Positions 8,867 through 38,745 of a DNA stretch of 64,000 nt are shown in pieces (within the stretch, counting starts at the first letter, position 1; each line of letters starts with the position of its first letter). Source of the stretch: an uncultured bacterium (GTDB lineage Bacteria > Babelota > Babeliae > Babelales > Babelaceae); assembly GCA_963699715.1 (NCBI GenBank), contig CAVOUX010000004.1:174346-238345 (forward strand), read 5' to 3'. The notes beneath the pieces are model-generated. The model made no database searches and had not been told where the DNA came from. It saw only the letters and a program-made list of their open reading frames with translations. Position numbers and translations under genes: made by a program.

Positions 8867-8908
8867 CCTCGAGACGACAGCACGTTAAAGTTACGAGCAG
8901 CAAGTTTA

Positions 8909-10766: not shown

Positions 10767-11021
10767 ATGAAAAAACCAGTAAAAAAAGCCATAATTTTTT
10801 TAGGCATTTTCTTGAGCACACAGATTCCAGCTATGCAATTCCCCCCCAGACAACCAATAGCTTTGACCGAAGCTGATAAAAAATTACTATTAAGCTTGGG
10901 CTATAAAAATCAGACCTTCATTTCGATAGCTCAAAATGGTCTGACTGCACAAGATATACTTTTCTTGGAATCCCTCAGGCAAACGGCTAAACAACAGATT
11001 ATTGTTTCCAATTCACAATAA
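10767..11021 (+). CDS. Small secreted hypothetical protein (84 aa)
   Basis: RBS aaggagag lies 8 nt upstream. Signal peptide MKKPVKKAIIFLGIFLSTQIPA. Confidence 0.45.
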   Translation: MKKPVKKAIIFLGIFLSTQIPAMQFPPRQPIALTEADKKLLLSLGYKNQTFISIAQNGLTAQDILFLESLRQTAKQQIIVSNSQ

Positions 11022-13238: not shown

Positions 13239-14390
13239 ATGAGCAGAAGCGGCACGTACATAAAGCAATTAGCGGGTTATAAAGCTTTTATACCAACAGA
13301 TTTGCCTTCTTATGCCAATCTTCAAATAGATTTGGTATTGACTCAAAAACTTGCCAAAGCCTCACTTTTAATAGCCCGCCTTGATGGTCTTGCCTATACC
13401 CTACCCAATACCGACTTATTTATTAGTATGTACGTAAAAAAAGAAGCACTCTTAAGCTCACAAATTGAGGGAACTCAGGCATCCCTCGAGGACATTTTTG
13501 AATTTGAAAGCGGTATTTCTGTTAACAACATTGGTGATGTTGAAGAAGTTGTTAACTATGTCAAAGCATTAAACTTTGGAATTCAAAGATTGAAGCAAAT
13601 TCCCATGAGCGTACGTTTGATTCGTGAACTTCATGCGATTCTTTTGCGTGATACACGAGGGCAGGAAAAAACTCCCGGCGAATTCAAACGATCCCAAAAT
13701 TGGATTGGTGCTTCCAATTCAACCATTGCAAGCGCGTTGTTTGTACCACCACCTGCCGATATTTCACTTGATGCAATGACTTCATTAGAAAAATATATGC
13801 ATGATGACCAGGAAACTCCCGATCTCATTAAATGCGCCCTTATACATTACCAATTTGAAACGATACATCCATTTCTCGATGGCAATGGAAGAGTTGGCCG
13901 ATTGTTAATAACACTTTATCTTTATTGGAAAGGAATTGTTGAAAAACCGTTGCTTTACTTGAGTTACTTCTTTAAAAAAAACCGCCAAGAATATTACGAC
14001 CGTCTTATGATGGTCAGAAACTCTGGCAATTATGAGCAATGGATATCCTTTTTTCTCGATGGCGTTATTCAAACTTCTGAATCCGCTATTGATAACACAA
14101 AGAAAATTCTCGAATTACATAACGAACACCAAGAATTATTGTGGCAGCAAAAAATCTCATCTCCTTTTGCGGTTATGTTACTTAATAGACTTTATTACAC
14201 ACCAATTCTTACCATATCTGATATACAAACCATGTTTGACGTCAGTTACCCAACAGCATCGCATTTGGTTAAGGACTTTGTAAGGGTCGGTATTCTTAAA
14301 GAGGTAACGGGGAAAAAGAGGGCAAAGCGATATAATTATGTTGATTATCTTTCTATTCTTTCTGAGGGCACTTCACCGTTCTTGGAGTAA
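13239..14390 (+). CDS. Fic-family AMPylase, class II architecture: N-terminal inhibitory (S/T)xxxE(G/N) helix plus C-terminal winged-helix-like domain
   Basis: Fic motif HPFLDGNGRVGRLL. The N-terminal SSQIEGTQASL contains the inhibitory SxxxEG motif. About 380 aa, as in SoFic-like proteins. Confidence 0.9.
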   Translation: MSRSGTYIKQLAGYKAFIPTDLPSYANLQIDLVLTQKLAKASLLIARLDGLAYTLPNTDLFISMYVKKEALLSSQIEGTQASLEDIFEFESGISVNNIGDVEEVVNYVKALNFGIQRLKQIPMSVRLIRELHAILLRDTRGQEKTPGEFKRSQNWIGASNSTIASALFVPPPADISLDAMTSLEKYMHDDQETPDLIKCALIHYQFETIHPFLDGNGRVGRLLITLYLYWKGIVEKPLLYLSYFFKKNRQEYYDRLMMVRNSGNYEQWISFFLDGVIQTSESAIDNTKKILELHNEHQELLWQQKISSPFAVMLLNRLYYTPILTISDIQTMFDVSYPTASHLVKDFVRVGILKEVTGKKRAKRYNYVDYLSILSEGTSPFLE

Positions 14391-18820: not shown

Positions 18821-19027
18821 AGACGAGCCTTTCAGATATTTGATTAATTCCTTCTATTAGTATTATAGCATTTAAATTACACTCCGTCTCTCTTATTTTA
18901 CGTTAAAAAAGGAAGTTTTGAGGTTTATAGGTAAATCATGGGGCAAATGCGCATCCTGGACATTTTTTTACAATCTGAGTTATACTGTAATCATATAATT
19001 CCTGGTCTCATTCACAAAGGAATAGTA

Positions 19028-20533
19028 ATGCTTAAACGCCATGTCATTGTTCTTTTACTCCTTATTCCACTCAGTATACTTGGCTTCTTTTGGCTCTTCA
19101 AACGGTATTTACCACATCAAATTATCGACATTAAAAATATATCCGCATCAAAAAATTTAGTTCCTGTAGCAATTATAGGTTCAGGTCCAGCTGGTTTAAG
19201 TGCAGCATTATATGCGGCGCGTATGAATTATTATACGGTAGTGTTCAAAGGAAGCATGCCTGGTGGCCAGCTAACGCAAACGACCTATGTTGAAAATTGG
19301 CCTGGTGTGGGCACTATGCTCGGTCCTGATATTATGAAAAAATTAGAAAGACAAGCACTCAACTTTGGCGTACAGTTTGTTCCTGAAGGTATTGAAAAAG
19401 CAGATCTAACGACTTGGCCTTACCGGTTATGGACCGAGGATGGCAACGAAGTAAAAGCGCTTTCGATTATTATCTCAACCGGATCGAAACCAAAGCGTTT
19501 GAACATTGAAGGCGAGACAAAATTTTGGGGCAAAGGCGTCACCACATGCGCTGTGTGCGATGCACCGTTTTATAAAGATAAGAATGTTGTTGTAGTAGGG
19601 GGTGGGGATTCTGCCGCGGAAGAAGCTATGGAACTTGCAGCAGTGGCAAAGTCGGTCGTCATGCTCGTTCGAGGTAAAGCATTGCGTGCATCGGCTATTA
19701 TGCAAGACCGAATTAAAGGATATCCTAATATAGCTGTTCGCTATGATACGCAAGTCAAAGAGATTCTTGGCGATGAACATGTTACAGGAGTTCTTTTATC
19801 CGATGGTGCTCGCCTGGCCATTGATGGCGTATTTTTAGCCATTGGCCATATACCTAACACTGAGATCTTTAAACCATTTATCACCTGCGATGAGCAAGGG
19901 TATATTCAACTTAAACACCCCTTGCAACATACATCTAAAGAGGGAATCTTTGCAGCGGGAGATGTGGCAGACTATCGTTATCGTCAAGCAGGAATCGCAT
20001 CGGGAGATGGCATTAAAGCTGCCCTTGATGCTGCAGGGTTTTTACGTGATCTTGGGTTTAATGAAGTGGTTGCTAAGCAATGGGAGCATGAGTACTTTGA
20101 TACAGAGAAAGACCTCGCCCGAGCACACCTTCAATCATTAGAGACCGCAGAACAATTTGAAAAACTCGCCAAAACAGAAAAATTGCCTTTGGTTCTTGAT
20201 TTTTATGCGCCCTATTGTCCTTCTTGCATGCAAATGATTCCAGTTGTCGAGTCTGTTGCTTCAAAACTGGCAGACAAATTTGTATTCGTAAAAGTTGATA
20301 CCAGCAAATCTGATGCGTTAGCAAAACGATTTCATGTTACCATGATACCGATGATCATCGTAATTAAAGATGGCAAGCTCATTAGTCGAACAAGTGAAGT
20401 TATGAATAAAAGACAGTTAACACAATTCTTGCAAAAAAGTGATTCTCTTCCAACACAGAAAATTGCAAAAAACCTTGTGAAAAAAATGGTGGCACCTCTT
20501 GAAGTATTAGTACCAAAAAAGAAAGCTGTCTAA
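19028..20533 (+). CDS. trxB: Thioredoxin reductase fused to a C-terminal thioredoxin-like domain, with an N-terminal membrane anchor
   Basis: FAD site GSGPAGLSAALYAAR. Redox-active CAVCD. NADPH site VVVGGGDSAAEEA. C-terminal thioredoxin fold with CPSC (FYAPYCPSCMQM). N-terminal TM MLKRHVIVLLLLIPLSILGFFWLF. Confidence 0.85.
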   Translation: MLKRHVIVLLLLIPLSILGFFWLFKRYLPHQIIDIKNISASKNLVPVAIIGSGPAGLSAALYAARMNYYTVVFKGSMPGGQLTQTTYVENWPGVGTMLGPDIMKKLERQALNFGVQFVPEGIEKADLTTWPYRLWTEDGNEVKALSIIISTGSKPKRLNIEGETKFWGKGVTTCAVCDAPFYKDKNVVVVGGGDSAAEEAMELAAVAKSVVMLVRGKALRASAIMQDRIKGYPNIAVRYDTQVKEILGDEHVTGVLLSDGARLAIDGVFLAIGHIPNTEIFKPFITCDEQGYIQLKHPLQHTSKEGIFAAGDVADYRYRQAGIASGDGIKAALDAAGFLRDLGFNEVVAKQWEHEYFDTEKDLARAHLQSLETAEQFEKLAKTEKLPLVLDFYAPYCPSCMQMIPVVESVASKLADKFVFVKVDTSKSDALAKRFHVTMIPMIIVIKDGKLISRTSEVMNKRQLTQFLQKSDSLPTQKIAKNLVKKMVAPLEVLVPKKKAV

Positions 20534-21852: not shown

Positions 21853-21957
21853 GGCGTATATTCCTATTTCTGCTTATACAGCTAGAATACCAGATCTTTA
21901 ATCCAATTTGCAATGCAAACAAAGCTCATCTTCCGAATAAAGATAAATAAAGCATAT

Positions 21958-23080
21958 AGACATCACATCTAATTTTGAGACTTAAAACCTAACAAAGAAT
22001 ACTCAAAAAAAGTGTTATTTAAAAATTCGGCAAACTCATTGGAGACCTGCTTGATATTATCGATAAAACGATTATGTGAAACATGTTTGCGAGCGGCTTT
22101 CCAAACTTTTTCTTGGGGATTTTCATCAGGGGCGTAGGGTGGAAAGTGGACCACATTGATGTTTTTATCTTGATCTAAAAATTCTTGAACGGCTGAGCCT
22201 CGATGCCACCCCGCATTATCCCAAAGCAAAAGCAGTTTGCGTTTCGGATATCGGCTTCTAAGCTGTGTTAACACCTCAACCGAGATGTACATGTTCTGTT
22301 TTTCTGCGATGAAAGCATGTTCGCGACCAGTTTTTATATTTAAAAATCCATAAAATGATCGATTTTCTCGTTTGCTTGTAACCTCTATTTTGGGATATTC
22401 ATTAGCAGGTAGCCAAATCTTTTGAAATGTTGTGACTGAGGAAAGAATCATCTCGTCAGCAGCGAAAATCTCGACTTTATCGTCTTTCCAAGCATTTTCA
22501 ATTATAGGCATAACATCCGCTTTCCATTTTTGAACTTGTTGCTCATCGCGTTTTCGATAAACCTTTCCAGGTTTGTGAAATGTAAAACGTGCTTCTTTAA
22601 AAATAAGATATATTGAGGTTTTTGACTTGTATTTTACGCCATATTGCTCACGGATAAAGTGTCCCAGCGACCACGTTGTCCAATAATCTTCTTCAAAACC
22701 AAAATCTCGAGGCCTATTATTTTTGAGTGCTTCGAGAACCTGCGCTCTCTCGCCTTTAGTCAATAACGCCCGTGGTTTCTTCTTGTTCTTGTCTCTGATG
22801 CCTTCTATTCCTTTTTTCAAGAATTTATTACGCAATCCAAATACTGTGCTTCTCTTGAATTCGGTGAGGTCTTCTATAAGTTCTAAATCGAGTTTCTTAT
22901 TAAGCATTAAAATCGCCTGAGTACGCAACGATTCCTTCGAATTAGTCTCTTTGTTTTTTGAAAATTCTTTGAGTTCTTCGATTTGCTTTTGTGTTAAAGA
23001 TATCTGTTTTGGCATTTTACTCTCTCACTTTTTGCCAAACAGTTTACCGTTTTTAATCTATTTTTAAAGTGTGATGTCTA
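21958..23080 (-). mobile_element. IS630-family element, copy 1. TIR tagacatcac... with flanking TA.
   Basis: Ends tagacatcacatc (21958-) and gtgatgtcta (-23080), each flanked by TA. 99-100% identical to the copy at 60081-61207 in inverted orientation. Confidence 0.85.
21969..23015 (-). CDS. IS630-family transposase (DDE)
   Basis: 348 aa. N-terminal HTH, then a DDE domain (WDNAGWH...PPYAPDENPQEKVW). Differs from copy 2 by one residue (A vs T in NEFAEFL). Confidence 0.9.
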   Translation of the reverse strand: MPKQISLTQKQIEELKEFSKNKETNSKESLRTQAILMLNKKLDLELIEDLTEFKRSTVFGLRNKFLKKGIEGIRDKNKKKPRALLTKGERAQVLEALKNNRPRDFGFEEDYWTTWSLGHFIREQYGVKYKSKTSIYLIFKEARFTFHKPGKVYRKRDEQQVQKWKADVMPIIENAWKDDKVEIFAADEMILSSVTTFQKIWLPANEYPKIEVTSKRENRSFYGFLNIKTGREHAFIAEKQNMYISVEVLTQLRSRYPKRKLLLLWDNAGWHRGSAVQEFLDQDKNINVVHFPPYAPDENPQEKVWKAARKHVSHNRFIDNIKQVSNEFAEFLNNTFFEYSLLGFKSQN

Positions 23081-23212: not shown

Positions 23213-23785
23213 ATGAAATTTCACTGCATTATCATCTGCATACTGTTCATGGGCTGCTTAATAAGTAGTCAGCATACTGTTGCACGTGATCAGCTTCTGG
23301 TGCACTTGAGGCATCCCTCAGTCCGAGCCTTTCTTGACACAATTGCCTATGCGGAGGGCACACTCCACGAGAATGGTTATCGAACCATATTTGGTCATAT
23401 TCTTTTTAAAAAATATACGTGGCATCCTCGATTAATTGTCTGTGCCAATTATAACAACAAGCAATTGTGCTCTAGCGCAGCGGGCAAATATCAATTTTCT
23501 CAAAAGATCTGGACAAAAGTTGCCGGCATTATTAAGGCAAAGGATTTTTCTCCTCTTAACCAGGAACGCGCAGCCGTTTATCTTTTAATTGATGCAGGCG
23601 CACTTTGTCACGTAAAAAGTGGAGATATCGATTTAGCGTTTGAAAAAGTTAACACGATATGGGCAAGCTTGCCTGGTTCGCCACACAAGCAACCGACAAA
23701 ACATAAACGGGTGTTGCATCAGGTATTTAAACAACAACTGCATTTTCATTGGAAGAAGGGATTTAGGGGAGGGATTGCGGTATGA
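23213..23785 (+). CDS. Phage-lambda-R-type lytic transglycosylase (GH104 'lysozyme'), with N-terminal signal/anchor
   Basis: AFLDTIAYAEGT (lambda R AFLDMLAWSEGT), AGKYQF and GDIDLAFEKVNTIWASLPGS align with lambda R. The hydrophobic N-terminus is MKFHCIIICILFMGCLISS. Confidence 0.8.
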   Translation: MKFHCIIICILFMGCLISSQHTVARDQLLVHLRHPSVRAFLDTIAYAEGTLHENGYRTIFGHILFKKYTWHPRLIVCANYNNKQLCSSAAGKYQFSQKIWTKVAGIIKAKDFSPLNQERAAVYLLIDAGALCHVKSGDIDLAFEKVNTIWASLPGSPHKQPTKHKRVLHQVFKQQLHFHWKKGFRGGIAV

Positions 23786-24861
23786 AGTTAAGTACAATGT
23801 TGATAGTAATCACGGCTCTCATCATAATGGGATTTTGGTTTGTTTTTAAAGTTTCTATGCAACTTTCTGATGTACCACCCGTCTACTCAGGCCCCATTGA
23901 ACGGTATGCCCCCAAGATTAATCGCAAAAAACGGTACCTCCAGGGCAAGGATGAGGTTATCACTTTTTTTGCAAAAGAAAACGAACATTCAGACAAAATG
24001 ATCGCTCGACGAGCATTTCTTACTCGAAGACCAGGAGCTAAAACAACGGTGTTAGTCTTTCACGGATTTATGTGCAACAAAAATGATATTCGCTTTTTAA
24101 GCAATACGCTTTTTGGAGGCACCTTCGACAACGTACCTTGCAATACGCTCACCATAGATTTTAGAGCACACGGTGATATTGCAGAAGGCCAATGTTGCTC
24201 CTTCGGTCACAATGAAAAATTTGATGTCAAAGGTGCCGTTGAATTTGTAAAATCTGACCCAGAACTTAAAAAAACGAGGAGAGTTGCCTATGGTTTTTCC
24301 ATGGGAGCAGTGTCATCAATCGTGGCACAGTCAGAAGATCCAACACTCTTTGAAATGGCAATCTGGGACTGTCCCTTTGAATCAACAACTAATATTATTG
24401 GACGGGCCATTGAACGGTTAAAATTTTCATTCTTCGGGTATGATCTCGGCCTTCCAGGTCGCGCTCTTTTGCACAAATATGCCTATAACGCCTACGTCCA
24501 ATCATTCTTAAAAACCGCATTAAAAACAATAGCCAAAGTTGACGTACATCAAGTTGAAACCTGTATCATGCCGGTAGACACTATTGCTGCCATGCAAAAA
24601 ATCTCGATCCCTCTGATGCTCATTATCTGCAGAAACGACGAAAAAGTTCCCGTATCTGCAGTCAAACAACTCTACGATGCCGCTAAGGGTTACAAACGCA
24701 TGTGGATCACCAACGGCCGCGTACACTTTGATTCCTATTTTAATAACCCAGAGAAATATATCTACAAAGTGCGACGTTTTATTCAAAAGGTCATAGACGG
24801 CACAATAAAGTATCGTCCTCAAGCCCATATAAGTGAAGATGAGCCTGACGAGATAGCCTAA
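23782..24861 (+). CDS. Alpha/beta-hydrolase-fold protein (serine hydrolase) with N-terminal TM helix
   Basis: GxSxG nucleophile elbow GFSMGA. N-terminal TM MLIVITALIIMGFWFVF. ATGA start/stop overlap with the upstream lysozyme gene. Confidence 0.65.
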   Translation: MKLSTMLIVITALIIMGFWFVFKVSMQLSDVPPVYSGPIERYAPKINRKKRYLQGKDEVITFFAKENEHSDKMIARRAFLTRRPGAKTTVLVFHGFMCNKNDIRFLSNTLFGGTFDNVPCNTLTIDFRAHGDIAEGQCCSFGHNEKFDVKGAVEFVKSDPELKKTRRVAYGFSMGAVSSIVAQSEDPTLFEMAIWDCPFESTTNIIGRAIERLKFSFFGYDLGLPGRALLHKYAYNAYVQSFLKTALKTIAKVDVHQVETCIMPVDTIAAMQKISIPLMLIICRNDEKVPVSAVKQLYDAAKGYKRMWITNGRVHFDSYFNNPEKYIYKVRRFIQKVIDGTIKYRPQAHISEDEPDEIA

Positions 24862-24944
24862 TCATTGATTTTTCAAACTGAAATATAGTATTGTAAAAGT
24901 AACTGTATCAGTGCTTTTGCAAAAAAAATCAAAAGGAGACTGGA

Positions 24945-27900
24945 ATGAAGCTCAGTCACTCAAAAATCGTCCTCATCGGTATACTATTATTTTTCGGTCA
25001 ATCTTGTTTAGGGATGGAAGCTTTAGAAACCGGTCTTGCTGATGGTATTTCAAAAGGACTTGGCGAAGGCGCTAGCTCAGCTATCGGAGAAATTACAAGC
25101 AATATAACAGGTGACATAACCAAAAGTCTACCCGATGCATTAGGAGAAAATGCAAGCTTACTTGCTGAACTTCCCGGCTCCGCGCTCGATGATATTACTG
25201 AGCTTGGAGGAGAATTTGGAAGCAAGATTGCTGATACCTTTGAAGCTTTGCGTGATGAAACCATAACCACCGATGCTGCAAAAACAACCATAAATGAAGC
25301 CGCAGAGACCATGGCAGCAGATCTTTCTAAAACTCTTTCTGACGCAGCAGGAAAAGATATCCCCGTTGATGCAACAAAATTACAAGCCGGGTTGGAAAAT
25401 GAAGTCGACCAATTGGAATCGAGTGCAACCCAACTTAATGAACTAGCTGAATCAAATGCATTGAGCGAAGTTGCTGACACTGGTCGTGATGTTGAGATGT
25501 CCGCTGCAGCAGAAAATCCATCTCCTGAAGTAAAAAATGCAAGCGACGCAACTGATATAGCCACAACTAAAGAAATGAATGCTGATGCTTTAGAAAAGAA
25601 GGGTGAGAGCGTAACGACAGAAACCCCCCAAAGTTTTTGGGAAGGCGGCTGGGGAAAATTTATTAAAGAATCATTAGGAATGGGCCTTGTTTCCGGCTTT
25701 GTATTTTTATTCCCTAACTGGATCATGTCTGCAATTCAAGGAGCTTTAACAAAGAAGGCTCAGCTCATGTCAGTCAAAGCACCGCAGTATTTTGGTGGTA
25801 TGTGGCTTCAAATTCCCGACGAATTAATCAACGTCGACAATCCTCTTAACACCATACCCGTTTATAGTTTGGTTACTAACCCCGATATTAAGAGTTTCTA
25901 CGGAGATGTCACTTCGGCGTTTGGACAACCTGGAGGGCTTGGCCTCCACTACGGAACGGTCGATAATAATAACTACTTTGTTTCAAGTGGTAACTATGAC
26001 GATTGTCCTAATCCGAGTAGTTTAAATATATCATGGGGAGCATCAACAATTAATGGTTCAGGATTTGCCAGCCAAATGGTACATTTGAATTCAGGTTTGG
26101 AATTTTTAGCTGACGGCTCCCCACTAAATCCCCAATTGCCTTATCGTTTCCTTGCTGGTACTCCTTCATCACAAACCAGCACCTGTCCAGCGACAATCTA
26201 CAATTATTTATATTTTATCGGGCCTAAAATAGCTAATGGAACTCCATTTAACGAAATATCGGATATGTTTAACGGCACTGGCATGATGAACACCAGTGGC
26301 ACATTGGCGCGAGCACAAGGAGGAAATGCACCACCCGCCGGACAACAAAGTGGTAGTCAAGCACAATCAACAGTGCAAAAACTGCAAGCGCTTGGCAAAA
26401 AACTTTCTGATTCTAGCAAAAAAACAACACTTCTTGACTATAAATATGCTGATATAAACGAGCCCAAGGGTTCACAGATCTCAACATGGGATCGTATGTC
26501 AGCACCATTCAATGTTGGCTCCGCTAACGATCTTATTTTATCAACCGTTAAACAACCGACAACAAATTTGATAAACGCATTTGGTAATCTGTCCACTCCA
26601 TCGCCTGAGGATCTCCAGTATCCTCTCGCTGCACAGGGACTATATGTGTATCAAACGGCAAATACTCCTTTAGCAAAAACAGTGCGGGCAGTCCTCGCGT
26701 CACAAACAGGCAATTATGCCGCGGCAGCAAATGACTTTTACGATTATGTAGTAACGCTTAATACAAGTTCTAGCCCCGTACCTGGCCTTATCCCTCAGGT
26801 GAACGTCGCATCCAATGGCGCAAATGATTCAAAACCTGGATACGTTAGTTGGGTTGTAAACCCTGAAGTAAAATATCTTTATAGCCTTGTTGACCAAGCA
26901 GCCTATGATGTCACGACAGGATTAACAGCACAAATTACCTTCGATCCAAGCACTTTATCATCGAAAAATTCGGTGCTTAGTTTTGCGACATCACTTGGTG
27001 AGAGCGTTAAAGATCTTATAGCTAAAGGACCTTTCACCTATGGTAGCTATATCGTGACAATACCACCAGAACTACAAAATGCAGATAGATTGGCCTCGCC
27101 CGTGTATCTTATCGATCCCGCTAAAAATAATAATAAAACAACACTTGAAGGCGGTTACGCAGATTACGTCGTGCCTCTGAACGCAAGCCAATTGCCAGTC
27201 AAAATTCCAGATCCGGCTCACAAATATTGGGCAAGCTTAGTCTCATCCCGGATGTATAACAGTGATTTAACATTCGCTAATGGTACGGTAGGATTCAATA
27301 TTCTCTCCATACGAGGTGGCGTTTATATTGCTTTAGAAAGCGAACTGAGTAAATATAACGACCAATATCCAGGTGAAGTCAAAACTTGTCCCGGCGGAAG
27401 CCATGTTAATGGACCACTGAGTACTCTCTATATGGAATATGACCTCAATCCATTTAACAAAGACCTTGTTAAAACTATGGCAACGTTAACCCAAGCGATT
27501 GCCCAAAGCATTACTAATTCAAATGATCCGATTTATGGCGAACTGCCAAGCACGCAAAAATCGGCTATCGCCATTACCGCTGCATCAAGCTTTGTCACTT
27601 CATTACAAGCGGCAGGATTGCTTCAATGGTTGCCTAAATTAAGCAGTCTCACCACTGATCAAATGAACCAGATTGCCGCAGCATGTGCACCTGCAATCAC
27701 CAAAGCTCTTGCAAGTTCAAAAGTTACTTTAAGCAGCGCAAAGCCAAGTGATATTACCACTGCATTAAGCATAAGCAAGCCAGCAGTTGCAGGCACTACA
27801 ACAACGCAATCAGTATTTGCAGGGCTTGGCGCAACGGTGAAGAATTTCGTTCCATCAGATGCTGCTGCAGGAATTGAACAAGTATTTGATGCATTCCCAA

Positions 27901-30782
27901 AATATGCAGGGCTCAGTGTATCTTCTTTTCAAAGTCAATTATGTTCAGCCGGACTAATGCCACTAGGACCCTATTACTTCTATTACAATAAAAACTTTTC
28001 AGTTACCGATGAGGGAGGAGGCAAAAGCAGTGCTCAACCATTATCAAAAAATCCGTTAACAGCCCCACAAAAAAATCTGCAAACCCCTACTATCTTTATC
28101 TTTAATGACATGACAAACTCCCATGATCGTTGGAAGCGGTGGCTGATGGGTCAGTCGCAGTCAGCGTGGCTTGCGTTTGAAGCGATGGGTCCTTTTAGCT
28201 TTACGCTTAACGGCATTCCTAACGTCTTGATTGAACCAACGAGTCTTACCGATATTCAAAATGGAGATTACGTGTATCAAGTCGTTGGCAAGGTACCAAA
28301 TCTTCCAAAAGGCGATTACTATGCGGTTGCTTCAGCAATTTCTGAAAGCAATGCATACACCGGCAATGCATTGGAAGCATTCAATCCTGCTAATCCCCAA
28401 CCGTATCTTATAAGCTTAACAACAGGCACGGTTTATACTCGAGATTCAGGAAATGCAAATGTTATTAAATCGGGAACATTATCGAATTTGGCGGCAGTGC
28501 GTGGCATGATCAAAAGCACAACATTGAAAAATACCTTAAATATTGCTGCACAGCAACAGGCTAAAAGTCCCGATTGGCAAACGTATACGCGTGGTAGTCG
28601 TACCTTAACAATCGATCCCCAAGATGTCCAAAATAATACCTATGTCTATCAACAAATCGTAGCGGGTACTCCACTGCCTCAAGCATTAAGTACCATAACC
28701 GATTTCTTTATAGGTGCGAACGACAGCCAAACTTCAAAAAGTATAGATTTAGGAATTCCTCTTGATAACAACCCAACCTATATTGTGTCATTAGTAACTG
28801 GGCAGGGTTATATAAGAAATGGAGGCAAAGCCTCTTTCAATCCCCTCCCGAATCCAGGCTCATTACTGAACAATCTTCCCGGTAGTGCCACCGTACGTGA
28901 TGCTCTCAAACAAGCTATTGCCGCTCTCATTACGTTACAAACTGCTCCTGCTAATAAGAAAAAGCCGGTCACGCCGCCAGCTCAATATAAGCTTGATGAA
29001 GACACCATTAAAAACTTGAGCGACAATAGCGCTCATACTAAAACTCCTTATCTTTATGGAGCTTACAGCAACCTTAAATTTTATAATAATAAATATTATG
29101 CAGTTACTGATGCAAACAACCCGCATGAAAACGTTACTACTTTCTTTGATTACTCAGCACAACCATTCATAAAAAATGGAAAAAGTACTCAGGTCGGAGT
29201 TCTCTATGATGCATCTGGCAATCCATCACTGTTTTATGATGAAACACTTCTTGATATAGCTCGAAAAAAAGCAGGCGTCATTGTCGGAACCACACAATCA
29301 TTGGGGGTTCCGAATCCTAACCAGCCAATCATCATTAAAGACTGCACCGGAAACAAAAACCCCGATGCGTCATGCACGCTCTTTGGGTTTGACACACCAC
29401 TTACGGCCTCAATGCCCGAAGGAACTTACACGCTCTATCAATACGGGTCGAGTGACTTGAAAGGTTTAAGACTTCTCGCTCGGTTTGAACCATCAAGTGG
29501 CACTGGCTACTATATCGATATGTTCTCAGGTACTCAATACAACATGGATGGTAGCACGCGAATTGCCCAATATCCAACACTCCTCAATAGCACCACCAAA
29601 AAAATCGCTGCTCCTCTTGGCTTTGATGAGGAAGGATTCCCCTTAGCTTTCGCGCCAGACAATGATGGCAATTATCAAGTATGGAATTATTATGCGCAAA
29701 TACAGAAGGACAAAACCTCAACAAAATACGAGGGCTTTACAGCGGCAGCTTACAAAAATCTTAATTTTGCGGTAACTCCCTATACTCTTGACCCACAAAC
29801 CCAATGGACGGCGTATAATGGATTTGGTATTGATCAAAATAGTATGCAAAAATTTAATTCTGCCTCACCACAAACATTTACACCACAAACAAGCGCGGCC
29901 GCAGAGCAATTGCGCCTCTATACCTACATTGGGTCTGGAGCGGTTGATTCAGGCATCGTGGTGAGCAAAACAAAAATAGGAAATAATTCTAACTATAATG
30001 ATGACTTAGTAATAGCAGGCACAGGCCAAGGGCCAGCATGGAAAGTGACTCGACTCTTTATGACTCCTGTTATTGAAGACGCACCTGAATATCTTGAACT
30101 CAAATCTTCAGAAGCAACTGGCTCTGGAGTTCCTTTTGCAACCGACCCGGCGGCGTCGACACAGTATAGCGCCACACTCTTTGACGGATTAGTTGATACC
30201 GACACTAAAGCACCATATATCGCTGTGAAAGATACCAATGGCGTCCACTTTTATGTCCCCACCTCTCCGACAACACCAGGTGCAACACTGAGCGCGGTGC
30301 AAAATCAGCTTAAAAAATATGTCAGTTTGACAACGTATGGTGACGTGGGGATCTTTCTGCCAATTACTAACCTGACAGGACTGTCGGTGATTCCAACGAT
30401 ACTTAACGTCCCTAACGATCAAACCTCAATCTCGAGTGCAAACCAGGTCTTAGGCACTGGACAGTTTGTGTATGAATCAGCTGAACCACGCAGATATTTT
30501 TATCAATATCAGGATACTGATAAGACACAAGCTTACTATCGAGGGTCACCAGCAGCATATGTTGACCTCCGGTACGGTGTGCTCTATGATGCAAATGGCA
30601 TTCCAACCGGAACGGCGATCTCATATGCGGAATTGGCAGCGCTCTTGACTATCAAAAATGTTGCAGTACCTCAAGCAAGCGATAACCCTACAAAATTTAC
30701 TGAGCCTTCAGATAAAACATTCGTAGGACAAAAACCCAGCTCTTCAACCGATGGTTTCTTATGGTATGGGACTACCACGTAG
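24945..30782 (+). CDS. Giant secreted/surface protein (1945 aa) of unknown function
   Basis: Signal peptide. About 200-aa acidic Ala/Glu/Thr/Asp-rich low-complexity region. A hydrophobic segment GMGLVSGFVFLFPNWIMSAIQGAL. Then about 1700 aa rich in Thr/Ser/Asn/Gly/Tyr with internal repeats (GDYVYQVVG / NNTYVYQQIV; PYLISLTTGTVYTRDSGN / PTYIVSLVTGQGYIRNGG). Confidence 0.75.
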   Translation: MKLSHSKIVLIGILLFFGQSCLGMEALETGLADGISKGLGEGASSAIGEITSNITGDITKSLPDALGENASLLAELPGSALDDITELGGEFGSKIADTFEALRDETITTDAAKTTINEAAETMAADLSKTLSDAAGKDIPVDATKLQAGLENEVDQLESSATQLNELAESNALSEVADTGRDVEMSAAAENPSPEVKNASDATDIATTKEMNADALEKKGESVTTETPQSFWEGGWGKFIKESLGMGLVSGFVFLFPNWIMSAIQGALTKKAQLMSVKAPQYFGGMWLQIPDELINVDNPLNTIPVYSLVTNPDIKSFYGDVTSAFGQPGGLGLHYGTVDNNNYFVSSGNYDDCPNPSSLNISWGASTINGSGFASQMVHLNSGLEFLADGSPLNPQLPYRFLAGTPSSQTSTCPATIYNYLYFIGPKIANGTPFNEISDMFNGTGMMNTSGTLARAQGGNAPPAGQQSGSQAQSTVQKLQALGKKLSDSSKKTTLLDYKYADINEPKGSQISTWDRMSAPFNVGSANDLILSTVKQPTTNLINAFGNLSTPSPEDLQYPLAAQGLYVYQTANTPLAKTVRAVLASQTGNYAAAANDFYDYVVTLNTSSSPVPGLIPQVNVASNGANDSKPGYVSWVVNPEVKYLYSLVDQAAYDVTTGLTAQITFDPSTLSSKNSVLSFATSLGESVKDLIAKGPFTYGSYIVTIPPELQNADRLASPVYLIDPAKNNNKTTLEGGYADYVVPLNASQLPVKIPDPAHKYWASLVSSRMYNSDLTFANGTVGFNILSIRGGVYIALESELSKYNDQYPGEVKTCPGGSHVNGPLSTLYMEYDLNPFNKDLVKTMATLTQAIAQSITNSNDPIYGELPSTQKSAIAITAASSFVTSLQAAGLLQWLPKLSSLTTDQMNQIAAACAPAITKALASSKVTLSSAKPSDITTALSISKPAVAGTTTTQSVFAGLGATVKNFVPSDAAAGIEQVFDAFPKYAGLSVSSFQSQLCSAGLMPLGPYYFYYNKNFSVTDEGGGKSSAQPLSKNPLTAPQKNLQTPTIFIFNDMTNSHDRWKRWLMGQSQSAWLAFEAMGPFSFTLNGIPNVLIEPTSLTDIQNGDYVYQVVGKVPNLPKGDYYAVASAISESNAYTGNALEAFNPANPQPYLISLTTGTVYTRDSGNANVIKSGTLSNLAAVRGMIKSTTLKNTLNIAAQQQAKSPDWQTYTRGSRTLTIDPQDVQNNTYVYQQIVAGTPLPQALSTITDFFIGANDSQTSKSIDLGIPLDNNPTYIVSLVTGQGYIRNGGKASFNPLPNPGSLLNNLPGSATVRDALKQAIAALITLQTAPANKKKPVTPPAQYKLDEDTIKNLSDNSAHTKTPYLYGAYSNLKFYNNKYYAVTDANNPHENVTTFFDYSAQPFIKNGKSTQVGVLYDASGNPSLFYDETLLDIARKKAGVIVGTTQSLGVPNPNQPIIIKDCTGNKNPDASCTLFGFDTPLTASMPEGTYTLYQYGSSDLKGLRLLARFEPSSGTGYYIDMFSGTQYNMDGSTRIAQYPTLLNSTTKKIAAPLGFDEEGFPLAFAPDNDGNYQVWNYYAQIQKDKTSTKYEGFTAAAYKNLNFAVTPYTLDPQTQWTAYNGFGIDQNSMQKFNSASPQTFTPQTSAAAEQLRLYTYIGSGAVDSGIVVSKTKIGNNSNYNDDLVIAGTGQGPAWKVTRLFMTPVIEDAPEYLELKSSEATGSGVPFATDPAASTQYSATLFDGLVDTDTKAPYIAVKDTNGVHFYVPTSPTTPGATLSAVQNQLKKYVSLTTYGDVGIFLPITNLTGLSVIPTILNVPNDQTSISSANQVLGTGQFVYESAEPRRYFYQYQDTDKTQAYYRGSPAAYVDLRYGVLYDANGIPTGTAISYAELAALLTIKNVAVPQASDNPTKFTEPSDKTFVGQKPSSSTDGFLWYGTTT

Positions 30783-30906
30783 TATATTGGGGACGGTTTT
30801 GTTGATAAATTGCCCTGCAGGACCACTATTTTTGTGATTTTTTTAAAAATAGTTTCTCTTTAAAAGAAATTTGTGTATCCTGTTACTAATTCAACCTAGG
30901 AACAGA

Positions 30907-31191
30907 ATGGCCCATAATTATTTGCTCTTAGCGCTCATGACCTGTTGTCTCACTATCGATGCAACAAGCTATCGCACATCAAATTCAATCGATGAACAGG
31001 TAGTGGCAACAACCAAATTTGTCGACAGAAACATTGTTCGTTTGTTTTTAGCACGCAAAGATCTTGATTTAATGATAAAAAATAATGAGGGCCAAACAGT
31101 ACTGGACCTGGCAGCAGACATGCCAGCAGTTCGTGAAATGTTCGATGAGTATCAGGATCGCTCACCAAAACCAAAAAGCCCCGAGCGTTAA
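30907..31191 (+). CDS. Small ankyrin-repeat-like secreted protein
   Basis: Hydrophobic leader MAHNYLLLALMTCCLTIDA. One to two ANK-like units (NNEGQTVLDLAADMP). Confidence 0.35.
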   Translation: MAHNYLLLALMTCCLTIDATSYRTSNSIDEQVVATTKFVDRNIVRLFLARKDLDLMIKNNEGQTVLDLAADMPAVREMFDEYQDRSPKPKSPER

Positions 31192-31624: not shown

Positions 31625-32377
31625 ATGACGAGAATTGATCTTCGTGAAGCAGTGTATGATTTTCCAAAACAAAATGTTATCACGAGAGCTAATGTTATGA
31701 CCGAGATTAATGCATTCGTGTATTATCACATCATTGATCCAAAAAAAGCAGTTTATGAAGTCTTTGATCTCCCTGAAGCCATCGAAAAACTGGCGCAAAC
31801 TACCTTGCGCAATGTTATTGGGTCAATGGACCTCGATGAAACCCTTGTTTCGCGCGACCAGATCAATACAAAATTGCGTGTGACACTTGATGAGGCTGCC
31901 CACAAATGGGGAGTGAATGTCACTCGTCTTGAACTGCAAGAAGTCAATCCACCTATCGATATTCGCCATGCCATGGAAAAGCAAATGCGTGCCGAGCGTG
32001 ACCGTCGTGCTATTATTTTAGAAGCAGAAGGTGCAAAGCAGTCAGCTATTTTGCGCGCTGAGGGTGAACAAGAAGCTCGTGTTAGAGAAGCACGTGGTAA
32101 TGCTGAAGCAAAATTAATCATGGTTGAAGCTGAAGCCACTGCACGCCTTCGCGCCGCGCAAGCTGAGTCTCAGGCACTGGGCTTTATTGCAGGCGCTTTG
32201 CCAGAAGGAAGAGACCCTGTCGCTTATACCATTGCTCGTGAATATCTTAAAACTCTGCCAACATTAACCGAAGGAAAGTCGACTAAATTGGTCATTGTTC
32301 CTTATGAAGCGACAGCTCTCGTTGGCTCACTTGCTACGATCAAGCAGATTTTTGAAGATAACAAAGGTTCGGTTTAA
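31625..32377 (+). CDS. SPFH/band-7 (stomatin/HflC-like) protein. The N-terminal region upstream (about 31445-31625) is disrupted by at least two frameshifts.
   Basis: In-frame part has RANVMTEINAFVYYHIIDPKKAVYEV...TLRNVIGSMDLDETLVSRDQIN...AMEKQMRAERDRRAIILEAEG. Upstream in other frames: EILG then RILGPGPHMILPLLIGQ, which matches the conserved GPGLHFIIPFI strand. Confidence 0.7.
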   Translation: MTRIDLREAVYDFPKQNVITRANVMTEINAFVYYHIIDPKKAVYEVFDLPEAIEKLAQTTLRNVIGSMDLDETLVSRDQINTKLRVTLDEAAHKWGVNVTRLELQEVNPPIDIRHAMEKQMRAERDRRAIILEAEGAKQSAILRAEGEQEARVREARGNAEAKLIMVEAEATARLRAAQAESQALGFIAGALPEGRDPVAYTIAREYLKTLPTLTEGKSTKLVIVPYEATALVGSLATIKQIFEDNKGSV

Positions 32378-37359: not shown

Positions 37360-38745
37360 TTAATGATTGAGTTCACGTTCGATTCTATCCAAAAGAGAAG
37401 CAAACTCAAAATCTTTTTGATAAGCATCGTGTATTTTCGTTATCGCATGCAAAATAGTGGAATGGTCTTTGCGCTCCAAACACAATGCAATCTCACGTAA
37501 GGATCGGTCGCTGTATTTTTTCATGAGGTAAATTGCCACATGACGAGCCAGGGCCAAGTTCTTACTCCGTTTGGGAGACTTAATTTCACTAACACTATAA
37601 TCAAAAAATCGAGCGACATGACGCACAATATAGTTGAGATCCAAGACCGGTTTTTTTGACTCGCGAGGATAAGCAAGTACTTTATGTGCCAGATCAAGAG
37701 TAAGCGGTTGACGAGTCAATGATGAAAAAGCAAGAACACGTATCAGACCGCCTTCCAAATCACGAATATTATCCATAGTACGTGCTGCAATGAAATAAGC
37801 AATATCATCTTGGAGCGGTACATTCTGTGCCCGTGCCTTCCTTTGCAAAATTTGAATTCGCGTATCAAGAGACGCTGGCTGCAAATCAGCCACCATTCCA
37901 CCCTCAATGCGCGATCTCATCCTATCTGAAAAACCTACAATATCACGGGGTAACACGTTGCTCGTGCAAACCACTTGTTTGCGGGCTGCATGCAACGTAT
38001 TAAAAATCTGAAAAAATATTTCTTGCGTTTGTTCTTTATGGGACATGCACTGAATGTCATCCATCAACAAAACATCAATTGTTTTGTAACGCGATTCAAA
38101 ATGATGAACTCTATCGGTGCGCACAGCGGCAATAAACTCATTAACAAATCGATCAGCAGATTGGTAGAGAATCTGAGCACGCTTATGAGTCTGCTTAATT
38201 TGATTACCAATAGCCTGCAAAAGATGCGTTTTGCCAAGCCCAGAGTTGCCCCAAATCAACAACGGATTATAAAGGCTCCCAGGATTTTCAGTTACGGCAG
38301 TGGCAGCAGCATAAGCCAAGGAATTATTGGGACCCACCACAAACGTTTCAAACTGGTGCTGCCAAGCGAGGGAACCTCGCGTTGGATTTTTTGTAGGAAG
38401 AGTTCGATCTTGCAGCGTATCATAGACATCGGATTCTGGTTTTGCAATCTCATGGACCATTCGGCCGTTTTTTGGCGGAACTTCGGGCAACGTCTCTTGA
38501 TCAACAAAAACTACCTTAAGAGTAGTCTCATTAAGCAATCGACCCAAATGTTGCTTAAACAATGATTGGTAGTGACCGTCGATCCAGTCTCTCACAAAAA
38601 CATTGGGCGCACGAAGATAAATAATTTTTGTGTTGGAATCCCATCGGACAAGGCTAACCGCTTTAAACCATGTCTCGACAACACGACTTCCAACCTCAGC
38701 ACAGAGAATTTTTAAAAATTCTTGCCAGAGACTATCAAGCACCAT
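37360..38745 (-). CDS. dnaA: Chromosomal replication initiator protein DnaA
   Basis: AAA+ Walker A GNSGLGKTHLLQAIGN. Box VII/sensor region. C-terminal DnaA-box-binding domain (…LREIALCLERKDHSTILHAITKI…). Confidence 0.95.
   Translation of the reverse strand: MVLDSLWQEFLKILCAEVGSRVVETWFKAVSLVRWDSNTKIIYLRAPNVFVRDWIDGHYQSLFKQHLGRLLNETTLKVVFVDQETLPEVPPKNGRMVHEIAKPESDVYDTLQDRTLPTKNPTRGSLAWQHQFETFVVGPNNSLAYAAATAVTENPGSLYNPLLIWGNSGLGKTHLLQAIGNQIKQTHKRAQILYQSADRFVNEFIAAVRTDRVHHFESRYKTIDVLLMDDIQCMSHKEQTQEIFFQIFNTLHAARKQVVCTSNVLPRDIVGFSDRMRSRIEGGMVADLQPASLDTRIQILQRKARAQNVPLQDDIAYFIAARTMDNIRDLEGGLIRVLAFSSLTRQPLTLDLAHKVLAYPRESKKPVLDLNYIVRHVARFFDYSVSEIKSPKRSKNLALARHVAIYLMKKYSDRSLREIALCLERKDHSTILHAITKIHDAYQKDFEFASLLDRIERELNH

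What the first reader, a model, noticed from the sequence alone, without database searches (positions are those of the whole stretch)
23213..30782. Secretion-associated locus: lambda-R-type lytic transglycosylase + membrane-anchored alpha/beta hydrolase + 1945-aa repeat-rich surface protein
Three co-oriented genes sit with a 4-bp overlap and a short gap, immediately inside an IS630 copy. The GH104 lytic transglycosylase (AFLDTIAYAEGT ... NTIWASLPGS) has a signal anchor and no other phage genes nearby. That resembles the dedicated peptidoglycan-remodelling enzymes that accompany large secretion or export machineries. The giant protein has a signal peptide, a 200-aa acidic disordered region, one hydrophobic helix and about 1700 aa of Thr/Ser/Asn/Gly/Tyr-rich repeats. 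It has no recognisable domain and is a candidate novel adhesin, S-layer or effector. The serine hydrolase between them could be a partner lipase or esterase.
Basis: partly seen in the sequence, partly recalled or inferred. Interest (0 to 1): 0.7.

Follow-up and report, generated by a model that had tools for sequence, protein, structure and literature searches.

The report
Orphan giant exported protein of Dependentiae
The three genes are real, but they are not a secretion locus: a lysozyme-like cell-wall enzyme and a membrane-anchored hydrolase sit next to an uncharacterised, fast-evolving exported protein of about 2,000 amino acids that is found at this same chromosomal spot only in relatives annotated as Dependentiae (TM6), a phylum of protist parasites.

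Summary
Three co-oriented ORFs lie next to an IS630 copy: a lambda-R/GH104-type lytic transglycosylase (23213-23785), an alpha/beta serine hydrolase with an N-terminal anchor (23782-24861, 4-bp overlap), and an intact 1945-aa ORF (24945-30782) with no hit in Pfam, NCBIfam or PHROGs.

The 'secretion-associated' reading does not hold. Named hydrolase relatives are all Babeliales/TM6, and the window shares their gene order. Ten giant-bearing loci keep the order TrxB-Trx fusion, hydrolase, giant, pepA, down to 18% giant identity. GH104 is present in 4 of those 10. It also occurs next to the hydrolase in 2 of 3 loci that lack the giant, so it is not tied to the giant. No secretion-machinery gene lies in the 64 kb.

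The giant belongs to an unannotated family: 37 clusters among 1.84 billion proteins, mostly 1,700-2,200 aa. All share a signal peptide, a variable charged helical N-region, a conserved hydrophobic junction and a beta-rich body. True repeats are few: two clear and two weak copies of a ~90-aa module. A model of residues 1050-1600 (pLDDT 79.6) has no significant structural neighbour.

Best guess: a Sec-exported surface or envelope protein used in host contact. Function is unproven.

The parts
18938..20533 (+). Thioredoxin reductase-thioredoxin fusion. It is the upstream anchor of the conserved gene order (context, not a functional part).
   Evidence: Pfam Pyr_redox_2 plus Thioredoxin. It is present upstream of the hydrolase in L003-L006, L008, L010-L013 and L015.
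21941..23076 (-). IS630-family insertion sequence (transposase 21969-23015). It is inserted between the anchor genes and the GH104 gene.
   Evidence: NF033545 IS630 at E 7e-59. A 1136-nt, 99% identical inverted copy lies at 60088-61223. No IS is present at this position in the related loci.
23213..23785 (+). Exported lambda-R-type (GH104) lytic transglycosylase, 190 aa from the ATG that follows an AAAGGA ribosome-binding site.
   Evidence: phmmer against 1AM7/3D3D gives E 2e-19, with the catalytic Glu kept in AYAEGT. PHROG 90 endolysin matches at E 4e-30. Orthologues of 42-61% identity sit directly upstream of the hydrolase in L003, L005, L008, L009 and L010.
23782..24861 (+). N-terminally anchored alpha/beta serine hydrolase (esterase-like), 359 aa.
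   Evidence: Weak Pfam Hydrolase_4 and Peptidase_S9 hits. PDB esterase 5G59 matches at E 1.8e-9. HGF, GFSMG, Asp and His are invariant in 10 orthologues. There are 566 homologues; all that carry an organism name are Babeliales, Babeliaceae or TM6, apart from one labelled only 'bacterium'.
24945..30782 (+). Giant ORF, 1945 aa. It belongs to an unannotated family of about 2,000-aa exported proteins.
   Evidence: It is intact in 10 syntenic loci. The HMMER scan found 37 clusters among 1.84 billion representative proteins.
24945..25013 (+). Signal peptide (aa 1-23), with a likely signal peptidase I (SPase I) cleavage site at CLG|MEA.
   Evidence: Kyte-Doolittle (KD) hydropathy peak at aa 3-28. The x[GSAC]-M-[EGA] pattern at the expected site is seen in about half of the full-length family members.
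25014..25649 (+). Variable acidic, helix-prone N-terminal region (aa 24-235).
   Evidence: 44 D+E against 13 K+R. It is the least conserved part. Its length ranges from 120 to 516 aa across the family. The family profile hits only helical-bundle and coiled-coil chains here.
25671..25844 (+). Conserved hydrophobic segment (F.F.PNW, aa 243-268) plus the junction motif PQxFGxxWxQIPxxLIN (aa 280-296).
   Evidence: It is one of the two best-conserved blocks of the family. The two motifs are exactly 27 residues apart in every member where both were found. Kyte-Doolittle (KD) hydropathy reaches 1.6 or more in 12 of 31 members.
26622..27266 (+). Two degenerate copies (A, aa ~560-660; B, aa 695-774) of the ~90-aa module. 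The module motif is GPF ... YVYQ ... DYVV ... NP.Y.SLV.G..Y.
   Evidence: hhalign of the module profile gives E 3e-4 for 695-774 and E 0.18 for 587-654. The family conservation pattern supports both.
27462..27944 (+). Clade-specific A/S/T/L-rich insertion (aa ~840-1000).
   Evidence: In the 31-sequence family alignment 59-71% of the sequences have a gap across these columns.
28182..28835 (+). Two clear copies (C, aa 1080-1172; D, aa 1211-1297) of the ~90-aa alpha+beta module.
   Evidence: Alignment of 8 copies from 4 genomes. hmmsearch gives E 1e-29 to 1e-40. hhalign gives E 2e-29. The AF2 model has pLDDT about 85-94 over this stretch.
30462..30659 (+). Conserved C-terminal block RY.YQ ... YY ... 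YVDL..G.LYD..G.P.G..L...L..LL (aa ~1840-1905).
   Evidence: It is the other best-conserved block of the family. The G..Y[DN]..G hairpin motif occurs 3-4 times against 0.2-0.3 expected from shuffles.

Best explanation
The window most likely comes from a Dependentiae (TM6, order Babeliales) genome. These bacteria are host-dependent and have genomes of about 1.5 Mb. The region is a rearranged piece of a conserved chromosomal backbone: pgk, lolC/E, rpiB, an AAA protease, the trxB-trx fusion, sometimes GH104, the hydrolase, the giant, pepA, ftsW, murD and ileS.

Two different things sit side by side.

(1) A cell-envelope pair: an exported lambda-type lytic transglycosylase and a membrane-anchored serine esterase-like hydrolase. 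The pair sits at the same backbone position in related loci. It is sometimes translationally coupled (4-bp overlap in 3 of 6 loci). By inference it serves ordinary peptidoglycan and envelope turnover, not a secretion machine.

(2) A family-specific giant protein. The architecture is shown. It has a cleavable Sec signal peptide, often with a conserved ME-type mature N-terminus. Next comes a variable charged helical region of 120-516 aa. Then come a conserved, moderately hydrophobic helix with a strictly spaced junction motif, a body of about 1,650 aa built from small alpha+beta modules and long beta-hairpins, and a conserved C-terminal block.

The mechanism is inferred. The protein is exported by Sec and folds outside the cytoplasm. 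Its Ser/Thr/Asn/Gly/Tyr-rich, Cys-poor body with few charged residues fits an extracytoplasmic protein. It probably reaches the cell surface or the medium. The type II secretion system reported as core to TM6 is the only obvious route. There it would act as a surface coat or host-contact protein. The conserved C-terminal half would be the structural core and the fast-changing N-terminal helical region the exposed or adaptive part. The conserved hydrophobic helix is more likely a buried or membrane-interacting element than a permanent inner-membrane anchor.
For: Taxon and backbone.
- Hydrolase homologues that carry an organism name are Candidatus Babeliaceae, Babeliales or TM6, apart from one labelled only 'bacterium'.
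- The same gene order recurs in L005-L013 and L015.
- The window is rich in ankyrin genes, carries a Fic gene and several IS, and encodes Lol and Mur/FtsW proteins, as expected for a diderm.

GH104.
- 1AM7/3D3D match at E 2e-19 with the catalytic Glu kept.
- Orthologues are found in 6 loci, two of which lack the giant.

Giant family.
- 7 full-length orthologues share 26-50% identity, while the adjacent hydrolase shares 47-74% in the same genome pairs.
- The HMMER scan of 1.84 billion representatives found 37 clusters, 32 of them at E <= 1e-10. Most are 1,700-2,200 aa and match at the same relative position.
- All members looked up are labelled 'hypothetical protein' or have no name.
- Distant members (18-25% identity) occupy the identical hydrolase-giant-pepA slot.

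Architecture.

No known sorting or translocation module was found in Pfam or NCBIfam for the window protein, or in Pfam for 21 family members. That covers autotransporter, TPS, T9SS-CTD, PEP-CTERM, RTX and LPXTG.

A Sec system and a high fraction of signal-peptide proteins are described for Dependentiae (PMC6561590). A core T2SS with two gspD genes and a degenerate outer membrane are reported for TM6 (PMC4776705).
Against: - No experiment or localisation predictor was available, so surface exposure is inferred from composition and evolutionary rate only.
- If the second hydrophobic segment (Kyte-Doolittle, KD, 1.61 in the window; 1.6 or more in 12 of 31 members) is a true stop-transfer helix, the 1,650-aa body would be cytoplasmic.
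- The giant is missing from 3 related loci (L009-L011), so it is dispensable in some lineages.
- The conserved adjacency to the hydrolase may reflect a frozen gene order rather than shared function. Opposite-strand genes lie between the two in 3 of 10 loci, and a same-strand ORF in a fourth.
- Taxonomy rests on names attached to homologues at 45-51% identity and on shared synteny, not on rRNA or marker phylogeny.
- One family member is labelled Saccharimonadales in NCBI.
Confidence: 0.5

Rival explanations
1. The three genes form a secretion-associated module. The GH104 enzyme opens the peptidoglycan for export or assembly of the giant protein, and the hydrolase is its partner.
For: The genes are co-oriented and tightly spaced in the window. 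The same three-gene order is found in L005, and with an extra gene in L003 and L008.
Against: GH104 is absent from the locus in 6 of 10 giant-bearing loci (L002, L004, L006, L012, L013, L015). It is present next to the hydrolase in 2 of 3 giant-free loci. No secretion-system gene was found in the 64-kb window or in the related loci. The giant has its own ribosome-binding site. In 3 loci it is separated from the hydrolase by opposite-strand genes.
Confidence: 0.06
2. The giant stays in the periplasm as an envelope scaffold or bridge. It could be a tether between the membranes, or a lipid-handling bridge that compensates for the degenerate outer-membrane biogenesis of Babeliales. The membrane hydrolase could be a functional partner.
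Confidence: 0.2
3. The giant is a very divergent Rhs/Tc-type (YD-repeat) beta-shell protein. It would be a secreted toxin or effector container aimed at the host.
Against: No Pfam RHS_repeat hit in any of the 21 members scanned, and no NCBIfam YD-repeat hit in the window protein. hhalign of the family profile against E. coli RhsA gives probability 0.5%. There are only a handful of YD-like motifs, where Rhs proteins have dozens. The C-terminus is one of the most conserved parts, the opposite of the variable toxin tips of Rhs and Tc proteins. There is no DPxG autoprotease motif block.
Confidence: 0.08
4. The giant is an inner-membrane protein. The signal peptide is cleaved, the N-terminal helical domain is periplasmic, the hydrophobic segment spans the membrane, and the 1,650-aa body is cytoplasmic.
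For: There are two hydrophobic segments in the window protein. The second is conserved in position across the family.
Against: Hydropathy of the second segment is below the TM range in 19 of 31 members, and the segment contains a conserved Pro-Asn. The body composition is atypical for a cytoplasmic protein of a low-GC host-dependent bacterium: E 2.2%, R 1.5%, and S+T+N+G+Y 39%.
Confidence: 0.08
5. The GH104 gene is a prophage remnant, and the locus is recently acquired mobile DNA bracketed by IS630.
For: Its best named relatives are phage endolysins. An IS630 copy lies directly upstream.
Against: No phage structural gene lies nearby. GH104 sits at the same backbone position, next to the same hydrolase, in 6 divergent loci that have no IS there. 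GC content is about 0.39-0.44 across the locus, within the window's range.
Confidence: 0.03

Closest known systems
Bacteriophage lambda lysozyme R (GH104 lytic transglycosylase; PDB 1AM7, 3D3D)
   Same: It aligns over about 130 residues at E 2e-19. The catalytic Glu in the A(W/Y)(S/A)EGT motif and the C-terminal IWASLPG motif are kept.
   Different: It is chromosomal and sits at a conserved backbone position across related loci. It carries an N-terminal signal peptide or anchor instead of depending on a holin. No phage genes accompany it.
Serine esterases of the Hydrolase_4 / S33-S9 / acetyl-esterase alpha/beta-hydrolase group (e.g. PDB 5G59)
   Same: It has the alpha/beta-hydrolase core with a GxSxG nucleophile elbow and an Asp/His pair.
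   Different: All Pfam scores are below the gathering thresholds. It has an N-terminal membrane anchor and an invariant DFRAHG...GQCC motif. The substrate and the side of the membrane it faces are unknown.
Large exported surface proteins and adhesins of host-associated bacteria (S-layer proteins, giant adhesins)
   Same: Size, signal peptide, acidic and Cys-poor Ser/Thr/Asn/Gly-rich composition, and rapid divergence relative to neighbouring genes.
   Different: There are no Ig-like, cadherin, RTX, autotransporter, TPS or S-layer-homology (SLH) modules and no long tandem-repeat array. The length is nearly fixed at about 2,000 aa and the gene occupies a fixed chromosomal slot.
Rhs / Tc-toxin BC / teneurin YD-repeat shells
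   Different: There is no sequence-profile similarity. The C-terminus is conserved rather than variable, and no autoproteolysis motif is present.

Membership tests
GH104 / lambda-R-type lytic transglycosylase | Sequence homology to lambda lysozyme over the catalytic domain | tested here: met
   phmmer against 1AM7/3D3D gives E 2e-19 over query residues 43-171. PHROG 90 endolysin matches at E 4e-30.
GH104 / lambda-R-type lytic transglycosylase | Catalytic glutamate (Glu19 of lambda R) in the xxEGT motif | tested here: met
   AYAEGT aligns with AWSEGT. The motif is invariant in 6 orthologues.
GH104 / lambda-R-type lytic transglycosylase | Transglycosylase chemistry (1,6-anhydro-MurNAc product) | not testable with these tools
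   This needs an enzyme assay.
Dedicated peptidoglycan-remodelling enzyme of a secretion system (e.g. VirB1, EtgA, T6SS- or T2SS-associated lytic transglycosylases) | Encoded within, or co-varying with, a gene cluster for a trans-envelope machine or its cargo | tested here: not met
   No secretion genes were found in the window or the related loci. GH104 presence is independent of the giant. The counts are 4 loci with both, 6 with the giant only, 2 with GH104 only and 1 with neither.
Alpha/beta-hydrolase fold serine hydrolase | Nucleophile elbow GxSxG plus Asp and His, and an oxyanion HG motif | tested here: met
   HGF, GFSMG, C.ND(E/D)K and H(F/Y) are invariant in 10 orthologues.
Rhs / YD-repeat proteins | Multiple RHS/YD repeats detectable by Pfam PF05593 or TIGR01643 | tested here: not met
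   No Pfam family matched in any of 21 family members at E <= 0.01. No NCBIfam family matched the window protein. hhalign against RhsA gives probability 0.5%.
Rhs / YD-repeat proteins | Closed beta-cocoon fold | tested here: inconclusive
Known outer-membrane-targeted or surface-sorted giant proteins (autotransporter, TPS/TpsA, intimin, RTX/T1SS, T9SS CTD, PEP-CTERM) | Presence of the corresponding translocator, TPS, RTX or C-terminal sorting domain | tested here: not met
   No Pfam or NCBIfam hits for the window protein, and no Pfam hits for 21 relatives.
AsmA/TamB/YhdP-like bridge lipid-transfer proteins | AsmA, TamB (DUF490) or YhdP domains, and an N-terminal signal anchor directly followed by a continuous beta-groove | tested here: not met
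   No such Pfam hits. A helical region of 120-516 aa follows the signal peptide. pTM is 0.38. The fold could not be examined at coordinate level.
Tandem-repeat adhesin ('repeat-rich') | Most of the length is made of recurring units | tested here: not met
   There are two clear and two weak copies of a ~90-aa module, about 360 of 1945 aa. A self-BLASTP returned only the identity match.

The most novel reading that the evidence does not exclude
The giant is the founding member of a new-fold, apparently Dependentiae-restricted protein family that acts as the parasite's host-contact or host-membrane-engaging device. The strictly conserved hydrophobic helix and junction motif would insert into or grip a membrane. 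The always-adjacent membrane esterase would be a functional partner, for example in lipid or acyl handling. If so, this would be a lineage-specific invasion or envelope machine with no counterpart in studied bacteria.
Probability: 0.15. Interest if true: 0.8.

Novelty: new variant of a known kind. Interest (0 to 1): 0.45.

Why it matters
Dependentiae are widespread, mostly uncultured parasites of protists, and how they attach to and enter hosts is unknown.

This analysis defines a previously unannotated family that could bear on that question:
- It has a nearly fixed length of about 2,000 aa.
- It occupies a fixed chromosomal position.
- It carries a Sec signal.
- It has two sharply conserved motif blocks.
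- It shows no detectable relationship to any Pfam family (21 members), to NCBIfam or PHROGs (window protein), to PDB chains, or to solved or viral predicted structures.

The family is therefore a concrete candidate for envelope or host-interaction work in the cultured strains (Babela, Vermiphilus, Chromulinavorax). It is also a target for structure determination.

There is a methodological point too. A lysozyme next to a giant ORF looked like a functional module in one genome. Comparison across 13 related loci showed that the link does not hold.

Tried and rejected
- Word-indexed homology search with the full giant found only itself and one relative. The same tool with a 4-sequence N-half alignment returned nothing, not even the query. 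That result is uninformative, and the family only appeared with the exhaustive HMMER scan.
- The first HMMER job failed because the 2-sequence profile exceeded 1,200 positions.
- AF2 on aa 1050-1945 with a 2-sequence alignment gave pLDDT 30.7 and was discarded.
- The AFDB Foldseek library was unavailable.
- Self-BLASTP for repeats gave only the identity hit. An all-against-all hhalign of segments timed out.
- Rfam found only the tRNA.
- The family profile against PDB sequences hit only the N-terminal helical region, with compositional matches to coiled-coil and apolipoprotein chains.
- The idea that the 192-aa ORF upstream of the L002 giant is the lysozyme was rejected.
- A lipoprotein status for GH104 was considered. 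L003 has LISAC and the window has LFMGC, but other orthologues have no lipobox, so it is left open.
- A peptidoglycan O-acetyl-esterase role for the hydrolase, paired with the transglycosylase, was considered because of weak AXE1 hits in orthologues. The evidence is too thin, and the hydrolase often occurs without GH104.
- Literature searches found no description of this family in the Dependentiae papers held.

Full report
**What is in the sequence**

ORF listing and translation confirm three co-oriented genes.
- The first runs from 23195 (GTG), or more likely 23213 (ATG preceded by AAAGGA), to 23785.
- The second runs from 23782 to 24861 and overlaps the first by 4 bp.
- The third runs from 24945 to 30782, encodes 1945 aa, and follows an 83-nt spacer that ends in an AAAGGAG ribosome-binding site.

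Directly upstream is an IS630-family element at 21941-23076. Its transposase matches NF033545 at E 7e-59. A 99% identical inverted twin lies at 60088-61223. Composition across the locus is ordinary for the window.

**The two small genes**

The first protein matches the lambda lysozyme structures 1AM7 and 3D3D at E 2e-19. The alignment covers the catalytic domain and keeps the catalytic glutamate (AYAEGT against AWSEGT). It also matches PHROG endolysin families at E 4e-30. It carries an N-terminal hydrophobic signal.

The second protein is an alpha/beta hydrolase. Its Pfam scores are sub-threshold (Hydrolase_4, Peptidase_S9), and the PDB esterase 5G59 matches at E 1.8e-9. HGF, GFSMG, Asp and His are invariant across ten orthologues, and it has an N-terminal hydrophobic anchor.

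**Whose genome this is**

The hydrolase has 566 homologues. Those that carry an organism name are Candidatus Babeliaceae, Babeliales or candidate division TM6, apart from one labelled only 'bacterium'.

The window has many ankyrin-repeat genes, one of them with a RING finger. It also has a Fic gene, several IS elements, dnaA, and Lol-type and Mur/FtsW genes. Two related MAG contigs are 1.27 and 1.52 Mb long.

This fits Dependentiae, which are host-dependent parasites of protists. Published work describes them as having Sec export and a very large signal-peptide proteome (PMC6561590). It also reports a core type II secretion system and a degenerate outer membrane (PMC4776705). The taxon is inferred from named homologues and shared synteny, not from marker phylogeny.

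**Synteny test of the 'module'**

I collected 13 distinct related loci. They share a backbone: pgk, lolC/E, rpiB, an AAA protease, the trxB-trx fusion, sometimes GH104, the hydrolase, sometimes the giant, pepA (M17), ftsW, murD and ileS.

| Locus content | Loci |
|---|---|
| Giant present (10) | window, L002, L003, L004, L005, L006, L008, L012, L013, L015 |
| Giant and GH104 (4) | window, L003, L005, L008 |
| Giant, no GH104 at the locus (6) | L002, L004, L006, L012, L013, L015 |
| GH104, no giant (2) | L009, L010 |
| Neither (1) | L011 |

- In all ten giant loci the giant lies downstream of the hydrolase. This holds even where it shares only 18-25% identity with the window protein (L012, L013, L015).
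- In L002, L006, L012, L013 and L015, pepA follows the giant.
- GH104 orthologues share 42-61% identity with the window protein.
- GH104 presence is therefore independent of the giant. The idea that it is a dedicated wall-opening enzyme for the giant is not supported.
- GH104 is also not a prophage remnant, because it occupies the same backbone position next to the same hydrolase in six divergent loci.
- The hydrolase-giant adjacency is universal but not necessarily functional. Opposite-strand genes have been inserted between the two in three loci and a same-strand ORF in a fourth. The whole block is a frozen gene order of unrelated housekeeping genes.
- In the window the backbone has been scrambled: pepA is at 10999-12519 and murD/ftsW are at 7533-9757, both upstream. 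IS activity is the likely cause. The three genes have nevertheless stayed together.

**The giant protein**

It has no hit in Pfam, NCBIfam or PHROGs. None of 21 family members has a Pfam hit.

The word-indexed search saw only one relative. An exhaustive HMMER scan of 1.84 billion representative proteins, using a profile of the C-terminal half, found 37 clusters. Of these, 32 score E <= 1e-10. Most are 1,700-2,200 aa and match at the same relative position. Those looked up are 'hypothetical protein' or unnamed.

Seven close orthologues are all intact (1945-2039 aa) and share 26-50% identity. The neighbouring hydrolase shares 47-74% in the same genome pairs. The giant therefore evolves roughly twice as fast as its neighbour while keeping its length.

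**Architecture**

- An N-terminal signal peptide. In about half of the members a small residue followed by Met-Glu/Gly/Ala sits at the expected cleavage site, which suggests a conserved mature N-terminus.
- A variable region of 120-516 aa. It is acidic in the window clade (44 D+E against 13 K+R). In most relatives it has balanced charge and is 42-58% A/L/E/K/Q.
- With a 27-sequence family profile, this variable region is the only part that hits PDB chains. All those hits are helical bundles, coiled coils or apolipoproteins. It is therefore more likely helical than disordered.
- A conserved hydrophobic segment (F.F.PNW), followed exactly 27 residues later by PQxFGxxWxQIPxxLIN. This is one of the two best-conserved blocks.
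- The hydropathy of that segment reaches a transmembrane-like value in only 12 of 31 members. I read it as a buried or membrane-interacting helix rather than a fixed anchor.
- A body of about 1,650 aa that is rich in T, S, A, G, P, N and Y, and poor in E, R and C.
- A conserved C-terminal block: RY.YQ ... YVDL..G.LYD..G.P.G.

**Repeats**

The 'repeat-rich' description is only partly right. A ~90-aa module (GPF.FT ... YVYQ ... DYxV ... NP.Y.ISLVTG.VY) occurs twice clearly, at aa 1080-1172 and 1211-1297 (hmmsearch E 1e-29 to 1e-40, hhalign E 2e-29). It occurs once weakly at 695-774 (E 3e-4). It occurs once more, mainly as motifs, at about 560-660. An A/S/T/L-rich stretch at about 840-1000 is an insertion specific to the window's clade.

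**Structure**

With two sequences AF2 failed (pLDDT 30.7). With the 27-sequence family alignment, residues 1050-1600 were modelled at mean pLDDT 79.6 and pTM 0.38. The two modules are small alpha+beta units and are followed by long beta-hairpins.

I tested the Rhs/YD lead.
- There are no RHS_repeat hits.
- hhalign against E. coli RhsA gives probability 0.5%.
- Only 3-4 G..Y[DN]..G motifs are present, although that exceeds the 0.2-0.3 expected from shuffles.
- The C-terminus is conserved rather than variable.

Membership in the Rhs family is therefore not met, and the resemblance is at most local. The AFDB library was not available.

**Most likely mechanism**

Shown:
- A Sec-type signal.
- A composition typical of extracytoplasmic proteins.
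- No known outer-membrane translocator or sorting tag.
- A fixed length and a fixed chromosomal slot.
- Fast divergence concentrated in the N-terminal region.
- Loss in some lineages.

Inferred: the protein is exported and folds outside the cytoplasm. It then acts at the cell surface or in the envelope, probably as a coat or host-contact protein of the infectious stage. The T2SS reported as core in TM6 is the plausible exit route.

Rivals are a periplasmic scaffold or lipid bridge, a divergent Tc/Rhs-like effector shell, and an inner-membrane protein with a cytoplasmic body. None is excluded, and all rest on weaker evidence. The GH104 enzyme and the hydrolase are best read as ordinary envelope enzymes. 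The side of the membrane that the hydrolase faces, and its substrate, are unknown.

**Novelty and verdict**

GH104 and the hydrolase are new members of known kinds. The giant defines an uncharacterised family, apparently restricted to Dependentiae, with no detectable sequence or structural relatives. The class it most resembles, large exported surface proteins of host-dependent bacteria, is known, so I rate it a new variant of a known kind.

The 'secretion-associated locus' interpretation is not supported, but 'novel surface protein or effector' remains open. Interest is moderate. The family is a good target for structural and localisation work, but nothing here shows an unexpected mechanism.

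Noticed in passing
window 21941-23076 and 60088-61223: Two 99% identical IS630 copies in inverted orientation bracket 37 kb. That stretch includes the locus, dnaA (37360-38745) and tRNA-Arg(CCT). Recombination between them could invert the origin-proximal segment.
   Followed up: partly
window 7533-8396, 8909-9757, 53381-54865 and 54932-55489, 31625-32377: Housekeeping genes look truncated or split. MurD is 287 aa and lacks its C domain. FtsW is 282 aa against about 370 in relatives. MutS is in two ORFs. The Band_7 ORF starts at profile position 36. These are either pseudogenes in a decaying genome or frameshift errors of a long-read MAG.
   Followed up: no
window 4780-5928 and 6406-7392: There are further transposases (Mutator family, DDE_Tnp_1) beside the disrupted murD/ftsW region. 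The conserved Babeliales gene order (pepA, ftsW and murD downstream of the giant) is rearranged in this genome.
   Followed up: partly
window 44151-46316: A 721-aa protein combines ankyrin repeats with a RING-type zinc finger. This is a eukaryote-like E3-ligase architecture and suggests a host-targeted effector. At least six other ankyrin genes lie in the window.
   Followed up: no
window 18938-20533: The thioredoxin reductase-thioredoxin fusion has an N-terminal extension of about 70 aa. It is conserved as the upstream neighbour of the hydrolase in nearly all related loci.
   Followed up: no
window 30871-31191; L005 17319-17720: A small ORF with a signal-like N-terminus and one ankyrin-like repeat (..DLDL.I.N.EG.TVLDL..) lies just downstream of the giant. 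It recurs at the same position in the closest relative, L005.
   Followed up: no
giant aa 21-27 (window 25005-25025) and relatives: Right after the signal-peptide core, about half of the full-length family members (16 of 31 by pattern search) show x[GSAC]-M-[EGA], as in CLG|MEA, VGMEA and YSMEF. This implies a conserved mature N-terminus that begins with Met-Glu, which is unusual for exported proteins.
   Followed up: partly
family member P0149 (L015): This relative is labelled 'Candidatus Saccharimonadales bacterium' (HSW76069.1) in NCBI. It nevertheless sits in the same trxB-hydrolase-giant-pepA-ftsW block as the Babeliales loci, so a binning or taxonomy error is likely.
   Followed up: partly
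window 13239-14390: A Fic/DOC-family protein (Fic_N plus Fic) lies between pepA and the lolC/E-like permease. It is a possible AMPylating effector or toxin.
   Followed up: no
hydrolase aa 126-141 (window 24157-24204) and orthologues: The motif DFRAHG...GQCCSFG, with two adjacent cysteines, is nearly invariant in all ten hydrolase orthologues. It is not part of the canonical catalytic triad.
   Followed up: no
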